Shown: positions 44,484 through 47,024, counted from the first letter of the stretch. The stretch is DNA of 64,000 nt from Candidatus Latescibacterota bacterium (GCA_965206595.1 OZ242214.1:4864001-4928000), one strand, 5' to 3'. Made by a program: numbers and translations. Notes: generated by a model from the letters alone, not told the origin.

Positions 44484-45260
44484 CTAGCCCGCCGGCCGTA
44501 CTCGTGACCGCTGCTCCTCGGTCATGTCGTCCGCCACTTCGGGGCCGTGCGTTCCGAAGCTCATGAAGCCCGGGGTGTAGCGATAGATCAGAGCGCGGCG
44601 CTGATGTTCGCCGTTCCACTTCAGGGTGCCGTGGGTGCAGGCCTCGACGAAGATCACGGCATCGCCCGCCCGGACGTGAATCTCCTTGACCAGCTCCTGG
44701 TGTGCTTCGTAGAACTGCAGCGCCTGCGGCAGGGGGTAATTCGACTTGTGGCCGCCGGGGACGATCGCCAGGCCGCCGTCGCCGGGTCCCTCGTCGGAAA
44801 GCATGAACTCCACGACGGTCATGCCGCAGTAGATCCTGCCGTGTTTCCACATGTAGGTCTGGGTGAAGTCGGGCCGCTCGACTCCGCCGCCGTGCAGGTA
44901 GTGGCCGGCACACCCCTTCTCCATGGTCACCAGGTCGGGCCCGACGTTGATGCGCCAGCCGCTTCCGAGGATTTCGGTCAGGCAGGAGCTGACGCGCGGG
45001 TGCACGAGCAGTTCGCGGAAGGGTTCGCACCAGGGGGCGTCCCAGGTGAGCATGCCGGACATCCAATGCTGCCGAACCTCGCTCGCCAGCACCTGCGAGT
45101 CGCCTTCCAACCGCCGTTCGTGGGGCTCGAGCTGATCGGCGTGATGATCTATGGCCCGGTTGCACCGCGCCACCTGGTCCGGCGACATCACTTCCCGAAG
45201 CACGAGGTAACCGTTCAGGTCGAAGACGTACTTCTCGTCGTCGTTCACTGTCCGCTCCAT
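44484..45260 (-). CDS. PhyH-like dioxygenase
   Basis: FDLNGYLVL, GGLAIVPGGHK, distal His (CTHG), QRRAL. Confidence 0.78.
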   Translation of the reverse strand: MERTVNDDEKYVFDLNGYLVLREVMSPDQVARCNRAIDHHADQLEPHERRLEGDSQVLASEVRQHWMSGMLTWDAPWCEPFRELLVHPRVSSCLTEILGSGWRINVGPDLVTMEKGCAGHYLHGGGVERPDFTQTYMWKHGRIYCGMTVVEFMLSDEGPGDGGLAIVPGGHKSNYPLPQALQFYEAHQELVKEIHVRAGDAVIFVEACTHGTLKWNGEHQRRALIYRYTPGFMSFGTHGPEVADDMTEEQRSRVRPAG

Positions 45261-45934
45261 TCAACTTCGCGCCTTTTTTCCAACCGGCTCGAGACTTCCT
45301 TTTCCACATCCTCGTGATCTATCTTGCCCACCCACTGAGCTACGATCTGACCGTCCCGGTCGAGAAGAAACATTGCAGGAATCGCTTTCACCTTGAACTG
45401 ATGCCAGGCGGGCGTCTGTTTCGCGTCAACGAAGATGGGGTATGTAATGTCCATTTTTTCCACCATCTTCTTGATCTTCCTGCCCCGGTCCTTGTCTTCA
45501 TCTATGGACACACCCAGAACTTCAACCCCCTTGTCGGAAAAAGCGCTGTAGAGTTGTTGCAACCGGGGCATGGTCTCGAGACAAGGTTTGCACCAGGTCG
45601 CCCAGAAATCCACGAGCACGATTTTGCCGTTCAAATCTCCCAACGCCTTGTCCCCGCCCTCCAGCATTTCAACGACGAAGGGTGGTGCAGGTCGTGGAAA
45701 TACCGGCGGTAAATAGGCCAAGGGATCCGCGGCGAATTCCATTTTACAATCTCTGGAACAAAAGTAATACGTCTTGCCTTCATGTTCCGAATAGGCCTTG
45801 ACCTTTTCCAACTCGGTCTCGCCGGCCTTCAATGCACAGACACTGCAAAGTGCCTTGTCGGGAATCTGAGCTTCAGCCATAAGCGAAGCCGAACCGGCAA
45901 GGAAAATCAGAACCCAAAATTTGCTATAACGCAT
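45245..45934 (-). CDS. Exported YHS domain + TlpA-like thioredoxin
   Basis: Signal peptide, CSVC...HEGKTYYFCSRDC (YHS/TRASH), DFWATWCKPC, cis-Pro motif AIP. Confidence 0.88.
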   Translation of the reverse strand: MRYSKFWVLIFLAGSASLMAEAQIPDKALCSVCALKAGETELEKVKAYSEHEGKTYYFCSRDCKMEFAADPLAYLPPVFPRPAPPFVVEMLEGGDKALGDLNGKIVLVDFWATWCKPCLETMPRLQQLYSAFSDKGVEVLGVSIDEDKDRGRKIKKMVEKMDITYPIFVDAKQTPAWHQFKVKAIPAMFLLDRDGQIVAQWVGKIDHEDVEKEVSSRLEKRREVEWSGQ

Positions 45935-45946
45935 TGATCCTCCACG

Positions 45947-46615
45947 CTAAAATCCGAGAGAAAACGAAACACCCATGGTTTCAAGCCACACATACATCAA
46001 GCTGACCCCGTATTGAGCAGCGAAATAATTCAGCATCGCATGCCCCCGGTCGCCATCGTACATCGGTCGAAATGAAAAGCCCTTGCCCAATTCAACCCCC
46101 GCGCCGAAGGGAACATTGATGCCCCCATCCCATTCCGAATAATTCAGACTGCCGTAAAGAGAAGTCCGCAACCGCGGAATATATTTACTTACAGTCGCGA
46201 AGTAAGACTGCTCGCCTGCCGGCGAACCAATTCGATCCGAGCTCGTGCCCAGAAAGAGCGCCGGACGCGTCTCTGTTTCCGTCAACAAAAATAGAGTCAC
46301 AAGAGGTCCTGCCTCTTGTGCTTTCGGATTCAGCTCAACCCCGACCTGCAGGCGTCGATGCAGGCTGTAATTGGCGGTAAACCGCCACTGCGGACGGTCC
46401 ATCGACGTATCTACATACCGCCCCGAAAATGCATATTTCGTATGAATGCCACTCCCCCGGAGCGGTGCGCCTTCGCCAGGTCAGCCCACTCAGGTAGGCG
46501 TCATCGAAAATGTCGGCCGTTCACTCCGCGTAGAATCCGGCTGCGTTTCCTGTGCAAGAACAGGTGATGTGCCCAGGTATATGGCCAAAAGAAAAAGAGG
46601 AAAGTTCATCATCAT
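45947..46615 (-). CDS. Putative double-selenocysteine (UxxU) exported beta-barrel-like protein, 222 aa
   Basis: Signal peptide, in-frame TGA at 46492-46490 and 46483-46481 (codons 42 and 45), then an open frame continuous with ORF 45947-46402, ending VSFSLGF. Confidence 0.72.
46449..46465 (-). promoter_or_regulatory. Candidate bacterial SECIS hairpin
   Basis: CCGCUCC-GGG-GGAGUGG; the G-rich loop lies 22 nt after the second UGA and 31 nt after the first. Confidence 0.5.
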
Positions 46616-47024
46616 GTTCCGTCTGCATAGATAGAAAGGTGTATGCATACAAAAAACGTCTCCCGACCCATCGCCGCAATCCTGTGCAAGGACCCGCACC
46701 TTGCGCCCCCGCTGCGATCCCGGCCACTTCGCCTTCAGATGAATGGGTGCAACGCGGAAAATTGCAACGGCGGTCGGATTTACCTGGCCAATGCCTCCCG
46801 ACCGCGATGGAGAGCGCCAAACCCAGGGCTTTCTGGCTTCCAGCCACCGCGCCGGGAACCGGTGGACCAGGCCGGCTTCCAGAAGGTACATTCGCGCACC
46901 GGGGCAACGGGATGCCCCCCCGATTTCGGAGTGGCTTCGTCGAGAGCTGAGTGATCCGGCGCCCCGCAACCCAACGCAGCGAACATCCCCCTGCATCGGT
47001 AATGCAAAGGAAAAGGAGTGGACT

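What the first reader, a model, noticed from the sequence alone, without database searches (positions are those of the whole stretch)
45245..46615. Hidden double-selenocysteine (UxxU) envelope protein paired with a YHS-thioredoxin
Seen: on the minus strand one frame reads MMMNFPLFLLAIYLGTSPVLA|QETQPDSTRSERPTFSMTPT-TGA-V-G-TGA-PGEGAPLRG... and continues without a shift into ORF 45947-46402, which has alternating amphipathic strands and a terminal Phe. The only two interruptions are both TGA and are spaced exactly like a CxxC. A G-looped hairpin (46465-46449) follows at a spacing that could serve either UGA. Without readthrough the signal peptide and the barrel-like body would be separated. The next gene, 12 bp downstream, is an exported protein with a Cys-rich YHS metal-binding domain and a WCKPC TlpA domain. 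Known: bacterial Sec insertion uses a SECIS immediately 3' of the UGA, and UxxU motifs are rare (selenoprotein L is the classic thioredoxin-fold case). Inference: an outer-membrane barrel carrying an N-terminal diselenide/bis-selenol, recycled by a dedicated periplasmic reductase, for trans-envelope redox or soft-metal handling. I cannot tell whether the family has already been described.
Basis: partly seen in the sequence, partly recalled or inferred. Interest (0 to 1): 0.9.

Follow-up and report, generated by a model that had tools for sequence, protein, structure and literature searches.

The report
Unannotated double-selenocysteine outer-membrane barrel protein
This is a real but unannotated gene for an exported barrel protein that carries two selenocysteines three residues apart, always partnered with a metal-binding thioredoxin-like protein, and it defines a selenoprotein family that gene callers cut in half.

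Summary
Minus-strand frame 46615-45950 is open except for TGA at 46492-46490 and 46483-46481.

Evidence that both TGAs are read as selenocysteine:
- Both are kept in 10 of 10 full-length relatives and in 34 of 36 loci from at least seven phylum labels. No Cys, TAA or TAG replaces them.
- Substitutions pile up at third codon positions on both sides of the TGAs.
- The hairpin at 46465-46449 shows compensatory changes at synonymous sites and fits the published bacterial SECIS rules for both UGAs (22 and 31 nt).
- The genome has selA, selB, selD and tRNA-Sec, and it uses TGA as an ordinary stop.

A sister family carries an invariant PTCAGCAGEA (CxxC) at the same place.

AlphaFold (pLDDT 87.6) gives a 12-stranded barrel like FapF, COG4313, KdgM and autotransporter beta-domains (Z 14-16).

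The YHS-TlpA neighbour is conserved. In the Cys family the YHS domains are fused to the barrel protein instead, and a plain TlpA-like gene follows.

Not shown: selenium incorporation, the redox cycle, and the substrate. My best guess is soft-metal (copper-type) or redox handling at the outer membrane.

No Pfam or NCBIfam model matches the protein, and a 2026 catalogue of 119 selenoprotein families does not list it.

The parts
45947..46615 (-). Full selenoprotein gene (222 codons plus TAG stop at 45949-45947), read through two UGA codons. Public gene calls keep only 45947-46402.
   Evidence: orthologs
46553..46615 (-). Signal peptide, residues 1-21 (MMMNFPLFLLAIYLGTSPVLA | QE). The cleavage site is inferred from the A-x-A-like end.
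   Evidence: A hydrophobic N-terminus is present in the 21 aligned orthologs. No signal-peptide predictor was run.
46490..46492 (-). UGA 1 = Sec42
   Evidence: TGA in 34 of 36 loci; also retained in L052.
46481..46483 (-). UGA 2 = Sec45
   Evidence: TGA in 34 of 36 loci.
46449..46465 (-). SECIS-type hairpin: 7-bp stem CCGCUCC/GGAGUGG with loop GGG. It lies inside the codons for A-P-L-R-G-S-G.
   Evidence: 98.3% of cells paired; pair 42-54 is AU13/GC13/GU7/other1; pair 45-51 is CG28/UA5/other1; dG -10.7 kcal/mol
45950..46435 (-). 12-stranded beta-barrel body, residues 61-222, ending in Gly-Phe. Conserved motifs: GTSSDRIGSP, NYSEWD, RPMYDGDRxH.
45935..45946 (-). 12-nt intergenic spacer with GGAGG ribosome-binding site in front of the partner gene
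45245..45934 (-). Partner gene: signal peptide, YHS/TRASH four-Cys domain, Pro-rich linker, TlpA/ResA-like thioredoxin domain. Its stop codon is TGA.
45707..45847 (-). YHS/TRASH domain of the partner (residues 30-76). Cys30, Cys33, Cys59 and Cys63 are invariant in 17 of 17 orthologs.
45581..45595 (-). W-C-K-P-C active site of the thioredoxin domain (residues 114-118)

Best explanation
SHOWN OR STRONGLY SUPPORTED. Window 46615-45947 (minus strand) is one gene for an exported selenoprotein of 222 residues. Both in-frame UGA codons (42 and 45) are recoded as selenocysteine by the SelB pathway. One SECIS hairpin inside the next codons lies within the permitted distance of both UGAs. The body (residues 61-222) is a 12-stranded outer-membrane beta-barrel ending in Phe. 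The two Sec residues sit in an invariant P-T-U-x-G-U-P-G-E-G knuckle 15 residues before the first strand. The gene forms a two-gene unit with a periplasmic YHS/TRASH-TlpA protein. A sister family has CxxC at the same place, carries the YHS domains on the barrel protein itself, and is followed by a plain TlpA-like gene. YHS, the C/U-x-x-C/U knuckle on the barrel, and the thioredoxin therefore form one three-module system.

INFERRED, about 40% for this particular function. The bis-selenolate knuckle is a soft-metal site (copper(I)-type, possibly Hg/Ag/Cd) at or inside the periplasmic mouth of the barrel. It exchanges metal with the four-Cys YHS/TRASH domain. The TlpA domain, fed by the genome's DsbD/CcdA-type transporter, keeps the selenols and thiols reduced in the oxidising periplasm. 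This parallels the way TlpA prepares the copper sites of ScoI and CoxB (recalled, not read here). The knuckle may form a hairpin that plugs the lumen. This rests only on the model's secondary structure and on the ranges of the fold alignments, because I had no coordinates.
For: Reading frame and TGAs.

Conservation of both TGAs:
- 10 of 10 full-length matches among 61 related genomes; an 11th match is cut by a contig end.
- 34 of 36 loci in the species-genome scan.
- P0019 and P0062, the only 2 full-length proteins among the 120 best database hits, read W at both positions, i.e. TGA translated by table 4. The other 118 hits are N-truncated ORFs of 130-173 aa.

Coding across the TGAs: the third-position share of substitutions is 0.66 upstream, 0.74 around and 0.70 downstream in the close clade of 19 sequences.

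SECIS:
- 7-bp stem paired in 98.3% of cells.
- 18 cells have changes on both sides, against a shuffled mean of 1.8 (0 of 500 shuffles reach it).
- Slid controls give 29-69% paired.
- RNAalifold finds the same helix on its own.
- dG is -10.7 kcal/mol, and SelD of the same genome has a comparable element.
- The published rules are a 3-9 nt loop, a 4-16 bp stem, G in the first two loop positions, 16-37 nt from the UGA, and MFE <= -7.5 (PMC13188914, section 5, read). All are met for both UGAs.

Sec machinery: selA, selB, selD, and one tRNA-Sec with UCA and G73.

TGA is an ordinary stop here:
- The partner gene ends in TGA.
- 13 of the 31 full-length ortholog frames listed end in TGA (L055, a truncated copy, is left out).

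Cys homologs:
- PTCAGCAGEA is invariant in 11 of 11.
- The profile-profile match has probability 100% and E 4e-40 over 194 columns.

Barrel:
- pLDDT 87.6, pTM 0.78, 12 strands.
- VIA-align Z 16.1 (4rl8), 15.9 (FapF), 15.5 (KdgM) and 13-14 (autotransporter beta-domains, LpxR, NanC) at rmsd 2.4-3.1 over 150-165 residues.
- Omp85/BamA is present in the genome.

Partner:
- The YHS-TlpA gene lies directly downstream in 27 of 36 Sec-family loci.
- It is the only neighbour shared across phyla.
- 4 of 4 Cys-family loci with enough flank have a TlpA-like gene downstream.
- YHS is fused to the barrel in P0140, P0148, P0155, P0162 and P0164.
- A DsbD-type membrane protein is present in the genome.
Against: - There is no direct evidence of selenium in the protein, or of expression. 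The one RNA run holds only two tiny contigs.
- A distance of 31 nt from UGA1 is at the long end of the SECIS range. Decoding of two UGAs 9 nt apart by one element is only proposed in the literature, not demonstrated (PMC13582414, discussion passages read).
- That paper also warns that a SECIS-dependent tRNA (tRNA-ReC) could insert Cys at such UGAs. ARAGORN found none here, but its sensitivity for such tRNAs is unknown.
- A diselenide is expected to be much harder to reduce than a disulfide (recalled from the selenoprotein L work, not read here). That makes a simple TlpA redox cycle thermodynamically awkward.
- Nothing in the neighbourhood names a metal. The only conserved neighbour is the partner. 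The match to the copper channel PcoB is weak (Z 8.9, rmsd 4.5).
- Residues D127, D187 and H192 are also conserved in barrel homologs that lack any CxxC. The barrel therefore has a function of its own that I cannot name.
- 4 loci (L041, L043, L047, L050) have the barrel gene without the partner next to it.
Confidence: 0.8

Rival explanations
1. Same gene and same Sec decoding, but the job is purely redox. The UxxU knuckle would be a very low-potential diselenide/selenol couple on an outer-membrane anchor. It would reduce or isomerise envelope or external substrates (peroxides, disulfides, polysulfide, selenite), with TlpA as electron donor and YHS as a structural or regulatory zinc-ribbon-like module.
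For: Most bacterial selenoproteins with UxxC, CxxU or UxxU motifs are classed as redox proteins (PMC13188914, section 7, read). The partner carries a classical WCxPC thioredoxin site. A DsbD-type electron importer is present.
Against: The knuckle is not in a thioredoxin fold. YHS/TRASH domains with four invariant Cys are annotated as metal-binding domains (Pfam descriptions). These domains are fused directly next to the CxxC in the sister family, which is easier to explain by metal hand-over. No peroxidase-type or other catalytic domain is present.
Confidence: 0.25
2. The barrel is primarily a channel or an outer-membrane enzyme, and its conserved Asp/His/Arg loop residues do the work. The UxxU hairpin would be a redox- or metal-operated plug that opens or closes the barrel.
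For: D127, D187, G188 and H192 are conserved even in homologs without a CxxC. The best fold matches are plugged or occupied 12-stranded barrels (FapF, COG4313, autotransporter beta-domains) and the lipid A deacylase LpxR. Several of these alignments already start at model residues 38-44, before the first strand. The model has a beta-bridge between residues 38-39 and 52-53, and pLDDT is 82 at residues 41-50.
Against: I had no coordinates, so the position of the hairpin relative to the lumen is not shown. No catalytic motif of a known outer-membrane enzyme was recognised. No Pfam or NCBIfam family matched.
Confidence: 0.15
3. The UGAs are conserved and recoded, but one or both are read as cysteine by a SECIS-dependent tRNA-ReC-type tRNA. 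Alternatively, read-through is inefficient and termination at UGA1 is the main outcome.
For: Genomes with UxxU hydrogenases are reported to be enriched in such tRNAs (PMC13582414, passages read). Two consecutive recoding events should be costly.
Against: ARAGORN finds one canonical tRNA-Sec (G73 discriminator), one ordinary 74-nt tRNA-Cys and no second Sec-like tRNA among 53 tRNAs. If Cys were wanted, TGC or TGT would do, yet 0 of 34 loci have it. Strong purifying selection continues downstream of the UGAs.
Confidence: 0.05
4. The gene is not one gene: a pseudogene, two unrelated ORFs, a sequencing error, or a TGA-sense genetic code.
For: Public gene callers annotate only the 151-aa downstream ORF. 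Four loci do carry degraded copies: L033, L052, L054 and L055.
Against: The same two TGAs recur in independent assemblies from many phyla. The first barrel strand (residues 61-68) and the signal peptide lie upstream of the annotated start. Many orthologs have no Met at the annotated start. TGA ends the partner gene and 13 of the 31 full-length ortholog frames listed.
Confidence: 0.01

Closest known systems
   Same: Two Sec residues spaced like a CxxC. The bacterial Prx-like family is listed with UxxU in the 2026 catalogue (PMC13188914, table 1) and in the GOS study (PMC2398784, passage read).
   Different: Those are thioredoxin/peroxiredoxin folds. This motif sits on a free N-terminal knuckle of a membrane barrel, and the protein matches no Trx or Prx model. 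What I say about SelL itself is recalled, not read here.
Metal-binding UxxU double selenoprotein (NF041115, 'putative mercuric reductase') and the FmdB-family UxxU protein
   Same: UxxU that replaces a metal-binding CxxC in bacteria; 2 Sec per protein (PMC13188914, table 1).
   Different: No NCBIfam model, NF041115 included, matches the protein at E <= 1. Those are small soluble domains, not outer-membrane barrels.
Outer-membrane selenoproteins already catalogued: the FCYXU-type TonB-dependent receptor (NF049945) and the GSU2204 MtrB/PioB-type barrel (NF041027)
   Same: Selenocysteine in an outer-membrane beta-barrel protein (PMC13188914, table 1).
   Different: Those have one Sec and are large 22- or 26-28-stranded barrels (strand numbers recalled). 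They show no sequence relation to this protein. This one is a 12-stranded barrel with two Sec.
12-stranded outer-membrane barrels: COG4313 channel (4rl8), FapF (5o65), KdgM/NanC, autotransporter beta-domains, LpxR
   Same: Same fold: Z 13.3-16.1, rmsd 2.4-3.1 over 150-165 residues; C-terminal Phe. Several have a segment of their own chain in the lumen (recalled). The alignments to them include the stretch before strand 1.
   Different: 6-14% identity and no Pfam membership. None is a selenoprotein or carries a CxxC knuckle. The conserved SDRIGSP, EWD and YDGDRxH motifs are specific to this family.
TlpA with ScoI/CoxB (copper-site reduction), and ResA/CcmG
   Same: A periplasmic, signal-peptide-bearing thioredoxin with WCxPC that is dedicated to one CxxC client. 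The best NCBIfam hits of the partner are ResA (110 bits), StoA and TlpA.
   Different: All these hits lie below the curated cut-offs, so the partner is TlpA-like and not an ortholog. The N-terminal YHS fusion and a Sec-bearing barrel as client are not part of those systems. The TlpA-ScoI biology is recalled, not read here.
Campylobacter FetMP-FetABCDEF cluster
   Same: A periplasmic YHS domain (FetA) encoded together with periplasmic thioredoxins (FetE, FetF) in a metal (iron) uptake system (PMC10783030, passages read).
   Different: There YHS is on an inner-membrane protein. No outer-membrane barrel and no Sec are involved. The biochemical role of YHS is unknown there as well.

Membership tests
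Bacterial SelB/SECIS-dependent selenoprotein | In-frame UGA conserved among orthologs, with conserved flanks on both sides | tested here: met
   10 of 10 full-length relatives; 34 of 36 loci. PT-U-x-G-U-PGEG is invariant in the 21 aligned sequences. Third-position bias holds on both sides.
Bacterial SelB/SECIS-dependent selenoprotein | Cys-containing homologs that align Cys with Sec | tested here: met
   PTCAGCAGEA is invariant in 11 of 11 Cys-family proteins. hhalign gives probability 100% and E 4e-40. TGC or TGT sits at both codons in 6 loci. Caveat: the tools read U as C, so those two columns align partly by construction.
Bacterial SelB/SECIS-dependent selenoprotein | bSECIS: 4-16 bp stem, 3-9 nt loop with G in its first two positions, 16-37 nt after the UGA, MFE <= -7.5 kcal/mol (PMC13188914, section 5) | tested here: met
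   7-bp stem; GGG or GUG loop; 22 nt (UGA2) and 31 nt (UGA1); -10.7 kcal/mol. Covariation is. bSECISearch itself was not available.
Bacterial SelB/SECIS-dependent selenoprotein | selA, selB, selC and selD in the genome | tested here: met
   Of the 11 related genomes with the gene, 10 have a strong SelA match. The 11th (G005) is 81% complete.
Bacterial SelB/SECIS-dependent selenoprotein | Selenium found in the protein | not testable with these tools
   Needs 75Se labelling or mass spectrometry.
12-stranded outer-membrane beta-barrel (fold class of KdgM/NanC, FapF, COG4313, autotransporter beta-domain) | 12 antiparallel strands closing a barrel; structural match to solved members | tested here: met
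   pLDDT 87.6 and 12 strands. Z 13.3-16.1. Foldseek E 1e-5 to FapF.
12-stranded outer-membrane beta-barrel (fold class of KdgM/NanC, FapF, COG4313, autotransporter beta-domain) | Signal peptide, C-terminal aromatic residue, and BAM machinery in the host | tested here: met
   The N-termini are hydrophobic, and the terminal residue is Phe in 19 of 21. Omp85 is present in the genome. The signal peptide was judged by eye only.
KdgM, FapF, autotransporter or other named barrel families (sequence membership) | Match to the family's Pfam model | tested here: not met
   0 Pfam families for the window protein at E <= 1. Among the 21 aligned members scanned at E <= 10, the only match was a chance-level one (Etd1, E 0.16, 2 members).
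Selenoprotein L / Prx-like UxxU | UxxU inside a thioredoxin or peroxiredoxin fold | tested here: not met
   No Trx or Prx model matches the barrel protein. The model is a membrane barrel.
NF041115 metal-binding UxxU selenoprotein | Match to the NCBIfam model | tested here: not met
   0 NCBIfam families at E <= 1.
TlpA/ResA-type periplasmic thiol-disulfide oxidoreductase (partner gene) | Thioredoxin fold with WCxPC, exported; equivalog-level score | tested here: inconclusive
   PF00578, PF13905, PF08534 and PF00085 all score above their cut-offs, and WCKPC is invariant. ResA (110 bits against 170) and TlpA (67 against 230) stay below the curated cut-offs. The partner is a family member in the broad sense, not an ortholog.
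YHS / TRASH metal-binding domain (partner gene) | Pfam YHS above its cut-off; Cys ligands conserved | tested here: met
   34.1 bits against 30.3. Cys30, Cys33, Cys59 and Cys63 are invariant in 17 of 17. Metal binding itself was not tested.

The most novel reading that the evidence does not exclude
This would be an obligate bis-selenolate site built into the outer membrane. A Sec-tipped hairpin sits in the lumen of a 12-stranded barrel and passes a soft metal (or electrons) between the outside and a periplasmic YHS-thioredoxin partner. That would make it a three-module envelope system (YHS, C/UxxC/U-barrel, TlpA) not described before. In its Sec form Cys never substitutes, and one SECIS must serve two UGAs 9 nt apart.
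Probability: 0.3. Interest if true: 0.8.

Novelty: new variant of a known kind. Interest (0 to 1): 0.68.

Why it matters
1. Annotation. In the protein collection the family appears almost only as N-truncated 'hypothetical' ORFs: 118 of the 120 best hits, out of 614 with E <= 0.001 (names). A widespread protein of uncultured marine and sponge-associated phyla is therefore systematically mis-called. These phyla are Latescibacterota, Gemmatimonadota, Poribacteria, Acidobacteriota, Planctomycetota, KSB1 and Krumholzibacteriota, by the record titles.

2. Selenium biology.
- The family adds a UxxU selenoprotein outside the thioredoxin fold, located in the outer membrane.
- Neither Sec is replaced by Cys in any of the 34 loci that carry the motif.
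- The family is a clean natural test case for whether one bacterial SECIS can serve two nearby UGAs. That question was left open in a 2026 study of UxxU hydrogenases (PMC13582414).

3. Envelope biology. The swap of the YHS domain between the barrel gene and the thioredoxin gene ties three uncharacterised modules into one system. It also gives a testable hypothesis for the poorly understood YHS/TRASH domain.

Tried and rejected
- Pfam and NCBIfam on the read-through protein gave no family. Pfam on 21 members gave none either.
- Rfam on window 45000-47000 at E <= 1 gave no match. I do not know whether Rfam holds a bacterial SECIS model.
- The ESM Atlas gave only unnamed clusters, 'DUF3570-like' clusters and a YjbH-type barrel cluster. 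These are leads at best.
- The first AlphaFold run, with 10 close sequences, was poor (pLDDT 59). It was replaced by the 74-sequence run.
- Sequencing runs: 20 of 24 listed rows hold part of the stretch. The single RNA run (X18, a sponge metatranscriptome) holds only a 169-nt identical contig at 45239-45407 and a 51-nt diverged contig at 46435-46483. That is too little to call expression.
- The promoter and terminator scan found no sigma-70-like site upstream on the minus strand. The terminator-like hits lie inside the coding region and number about what shuffles give.
- MFE of 60 nt after the first codon does not separate the two families: the Sec family ranges from -14.9 to -30.2 and the Cys family from -12 to -28. 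Only covariation separates them.
- Clustering the neighbourhood ORFs of 43 loci found no conserved neighbour across phyla other than the TlpA-like gene. The PhyH gene that overlaps the partner's end occurs only in the same genus.
- In the tree of 79 barrel sequences the Cys family is one clade (100/100). The Sec family plus truncated ORFs form a weakly supported group (84/72). No direction of the Sec/Cys change can be read from it. Rows shorter than 140 aa were left out.
- Earlier findings of this scan returned nothing by place, sequence or words.
- Literature searches for such a family found only the two reviews, the GOS study and the hydrogenase paper. Supplementary tables of those papers were not available and could list it.
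Full report
**1. The observation**

On the minus strand the frame that starts at ATG 46615 reads MMMNFPLFLLAIYLGTSPVLAQETQPDSTRSERPTFSMTPT, then TGA (46492-46490), Val-Gly, TGA (46483-46481), then PGEGAPLRGSGIHTKYAFSGRYVDTS. It continues without a shift into the ORF that a mechanical ORF list starts at Met72 (45947-46402), and it ends ...SLGF-TAG. There is no other stop.

Twelve nucleotides after the TAG, behind a GGAGG, starts a 229-residue protein.

**2. Both TGAs are conserved and recoded**

A six-frame search of 61 related genomes, the window's own included, found the protein in 11.
- All 10 full-length matches have exactly two stops inside, both TGA.
- The eleventh match is cut by a contig end at residue 60.

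A pattern scan of one genome for each of 185,579 species returned 36 loci.
- The pattern that found them lies in the C-terminal barrel (RPMYDGD), so it is independent of the TGAs.
- By their record titles the loci are Latescibacterota, Gemmatimonadota, Planctomycetota, Acidobacteriota/Thermoanaerobaculia, Poribacteria, KSB1 and Krumholzibacteriota.
- 34 of the 36 read P-[TS]-TGA-x-[GA]-TGA-P-G-E-G.
- L052 keeps the first TGA and then has an internal deletion. L054 is only a C-terminal fragment.
- Two of the 34 are otherwise degraded: L033 has a non-TGA stop after the signal peptide and a broken hairpin, and L055 has an internal deletion.
- No locus has Cys, TAA or TAG at either position.

In the 5.8-billion-cluster protein collection the query found 614 proteins.
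- Of the 120 best, 118 are ORFs of 130-173 residues that cover only the C-terminal 59-80% of the query.
- The two full-length ones (P0019, P0062) read W at both positions. That is what a table-4 gene call makes of TGA.

The region upstream of the TGAs is coding. In the close clade (19 distinct sequences) the third codon position takes these shares of all pairwise differences:
- 66% in the 15 codons before UGA1;
- 74% in the 15 codons from UGA1;
- 70% in the next 15 codons.

TGA is not a sense codon in general.
- The partner gene ends in TGA.
- 13 of the 31 full-length ortholog frames listed end in TGA right after the family's terminal Gly-Phe. This count leaves out L055, a truncated copy.

**3. 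The hairpin behaves like a SECIS**

On 34 distinct sequences, 98.3% of cells in the 7-bp stem are paired.
- Pair 42-54 is A-U in 13, G-C in 13, G-U in 7 and unpaired in 1. The mismatching A/C combination never occurs.
- Pair 45-51 is C-G in 28, U-A in 5 and unpaired in 1.
- These are the third positions of the Pro, Leu, Gly and Ser codons, so the changes are synonymous and compensatory.
- 18 cells change on both sides, against 1.8 expected. None of 500 shuffles reaches that value or the covariation score.
- Sliding the partner by 1-3 columns drops pairing to 29-69%.
- RNAalifold predicts the same helix without being told.

The element meets every constraint of the published bacterial SECIS model (PMC13188914, section 5, read in full). 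Those constraints are a 4-16 bp stem, a 3-9 nt loop with G in its first two positions, 16-37 nt from the UGA, and MFE <= -7.5 kcal/mol. Here the stem has 7 bp, the loop is GGG or GUG, the distances are 22 nt from UGA2 and 31 nt from UGA1, and the energy is -10.7 kcal/mol.

SelD of the same genome is itself a selenoprotein. Its SECIS is UGA plus 11 nt, a 6-bp stem and a GGUC loop.

The Cys family has TGC or TGT at both codons and no conserved fold downstream.

A 2026 paper on UxxU hydrogenases proposes, without experimental proof, that one SECIS can serve both UGAs (PMC13582414, passages read).
- It also warns that a tRNA-ReC could insert Cys at such codons.
- ARAGORN finds 53 tRNAs here: one tRNA-Sec (UCA, 99 nt, G73) and one ordinary tRNA-Cys.

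**4. Sec machinery**

- SelA scores 464 bits.
- The SelB wing domain lies in an 876-residue frame.
- SelD scores 368 bits.
- tRNA-Sec is present.
- Of the 11 related genomes that carry the gene, 10 have a strong SelA match. G005, 81% complete in 810 contigs, has only weak ones.
- 55 of the 61 genomes have a strong SelA match, so this test has little discriminating power within this class.

**5. Cys homologs and the wider family**

A profile of 21 read-through orthologs was scored against 1.84 billion representatives. It found 228 proteins at E <= 0.001. Most are again N-truncated ORFs.

The full-length hits include a sister family with an invariant P-T-C-A-G-C-A-G-E-A at the aligned place (P0146, P0151, P0152, P0161, P0178, P0209).

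Five further members carry one to three YHS domains fused in front of the CxxC: P0140, P0148, P0155, P0162 and P0164 (Pfam). One cluster is annotated 'YHS domain-containing protein [Armatimonadota]'.

The profile-profile comparison of the two families gives probability 100% and E 4e-40 over 194 columns, with the motifs aligned.

More distant barrels lack the motif but keep D127, D187, G188 and H192.

In a tree of 79 sequences the Cys family is one clade (100/100). The Sec orthologs, together with the truncated ORFs, form a weakly supported group (84/72).

**6. Fold**

With 74 sequences AlphaFold gives a mean pLDDT of 87.6 and pTM of 0.78.
- Values are above 90 over residues 61-222 and 82 for residues 41-50.
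- There are twelve strands: 61-68, 77-86, 89-96, 101-111, 119-125, 137-146, 151-160, 170-177, 180-186, 191-198, 202-209 and 213-221.
- A beta-bridge joins residues 38-39 and 52-53.

The search that aligns the model to about 48,000 solved chains is topped by these matches (Foldseek agrees):

| Match | Z | rmsd (Å) / residues aligned |
|---|---|---|
| COG4313 channel | 16.1 | 2.6 / 164 |
| FapF | 15.9 | 2.4 / 165 |
| KdgM | 15.5 | |
| VhGalP | 14.9 | |
| EstA, AIDA-I, BrkA, Hbp and NalP autotransporter beta-domains | 13.2-14.1 | |
| LpxR | 13.9 | |
| NanC | 13.6 | |

- The copper channel PcoB scores only Z 8.9.
- Several alignments begin at model residues 38-44, before strand 1. This hints that the knuckle region occupies the position that plugs or linkers occupy in those structures. 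I had no coordinates to check it.
- With the usual topology (C-terminal Phe in the periplasm; an inference) the conserved SDRIGSP, EWD and YDGDRxH motifs fall in the short extracellular loops.
- The genome encodes Omp85/BamA.

**7. The partner**

By tblastn the YHS-TlpA protein is encoded next to the barrel gene in 40 of 47 loci, a count in which some genomes appear twice.

By ORF clustering it is present in 27 of the 36 species-genome loci, and it is the only neighbour shared across phyla. The nine loci without it are:
- two with remnants (L052, L055);
- three at contig ends or fragments (L023, L045, L054);
- four with other genes downstream (L041, L043, L047, L050).

In L022 a TAT-signal PhoX gene lies between the two genes.

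In all four Cys-family loci with enough flank (L056-L059) the next gene is a 159-161-residue thioredoxin/redoxin with FWATWC and no YHS.

The architecture is therefore:
- Sec family: [UxxU-barrel] + [YHS-TlpA];
- Cys family: [YHS(1-3)-CxxC-barrel] + [TlpA].

This is a domain swap that ties the three modules together.

In the partner, Cys30, Cys33, Cys59, Cys63 and WCxPC are invariant in 17 of 17 orthologs. One DsbD/CcdA-type membrane protein is present in the genome.

**8. How it most likely works**

Shown:
- one gene with two recoded UGAs and one SECIS-type hairpin;
- an exported 12-stranded barrel;
- a conserved periplasmic YHS-thioredoxin partner.

Inferred:
- After export, the mature protein has a free N-terminal tail of about 20 residues, then the Sec knuckle, then the barrel.
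- The knuckle faces the periplasmic mouth or reaches into the lumen.
- The two selenolates bind a soft metal and exchange it with the four-Cys YHS domain, while the TlpA domain keeps both reduced.

My estimates are about 40% for this metal model, about 25% for a purely redox role and about 15% for a gated channel or enzyme.

A precedent for YHS encoded together with periplasmic thioredoxins in metal transport is the Campylobacter Fet cluster (PMC10783030, passages read).

**9. Novelty**

- No Pfam or NCBIfam model matches the protein.
- I read table 1 of the 2026 catalogue of 119 prokaryotic selenoprotein families. It lists UxxU only for Prx-like proteins, a metal-binding protein (NF041115) and the FmdB family.
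- Its outer-membrane entries are only a TonB-dependent receptor type and the GSU2204 barrel.
- Five full-text searches found no description of this family.
- Supplementary tables were closed and could hold it.
- I rate the finding a new variant of a known kind: a new selenoprotein family in a new structural setting, within a three-module system that has not been described.

Noticed in passing
G000:C1:6566458-6567381 (minus strand; outside the window, locus L007): SelD of this genome is itself a selenoprotein with one in-frame TGA. A SECIS-like element follows it: 11 nt, a 6-bp stem and a GGUC loop.
   Followed up: partly
L022:3817-5181: In one Latescibacterota genome a PhoX alkaline phosphatase gene with a TAT signal is inserted between the barrel gene and the YHS-TlpA gene.
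   Followed up: partly
L033, L052, L054, L055: These are degraded copies of the barrel gene. L033 has a non-TGA stop after the signal peptide and a broken hairpin. L052 and L055 have internal deletions. L054 is a C-terminal fragment. Assembly errors are not excluded.
   Followed up: partly
protein P0130 (no DNA held): P0130 reads P-A-C-V-G-W-P-G-E-G. If the W is a table-4 reading of TGA, this clade is a CxxU intermediate between the Cys and Sec forms.
   Followed up: no
window 46640-46651: A perfect 12-nt palindrome, TGTATGCATACA, lies 25 nt upstream of the start codon. It is a possible operator. Judged by eye from translations, it is conserved only in the same-genus relative.
   Followed up: no
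L020-L040 (record titles): Genomes labelled Latescibacterota and Gemmatimonadota share barrel proteins that are 80-88% identical and interleave in the tree. Either the operon moves between phyla, or the bins or labels are unreliable.
   Followed up: no
window 44484-45260 (minus strand): A PhyH-type dioxygenase gene overlaps the end of the partner gene by 16 nt. It accompanies the pair only in the same genus, so it is probably not part of the system.
   Followed up: yes
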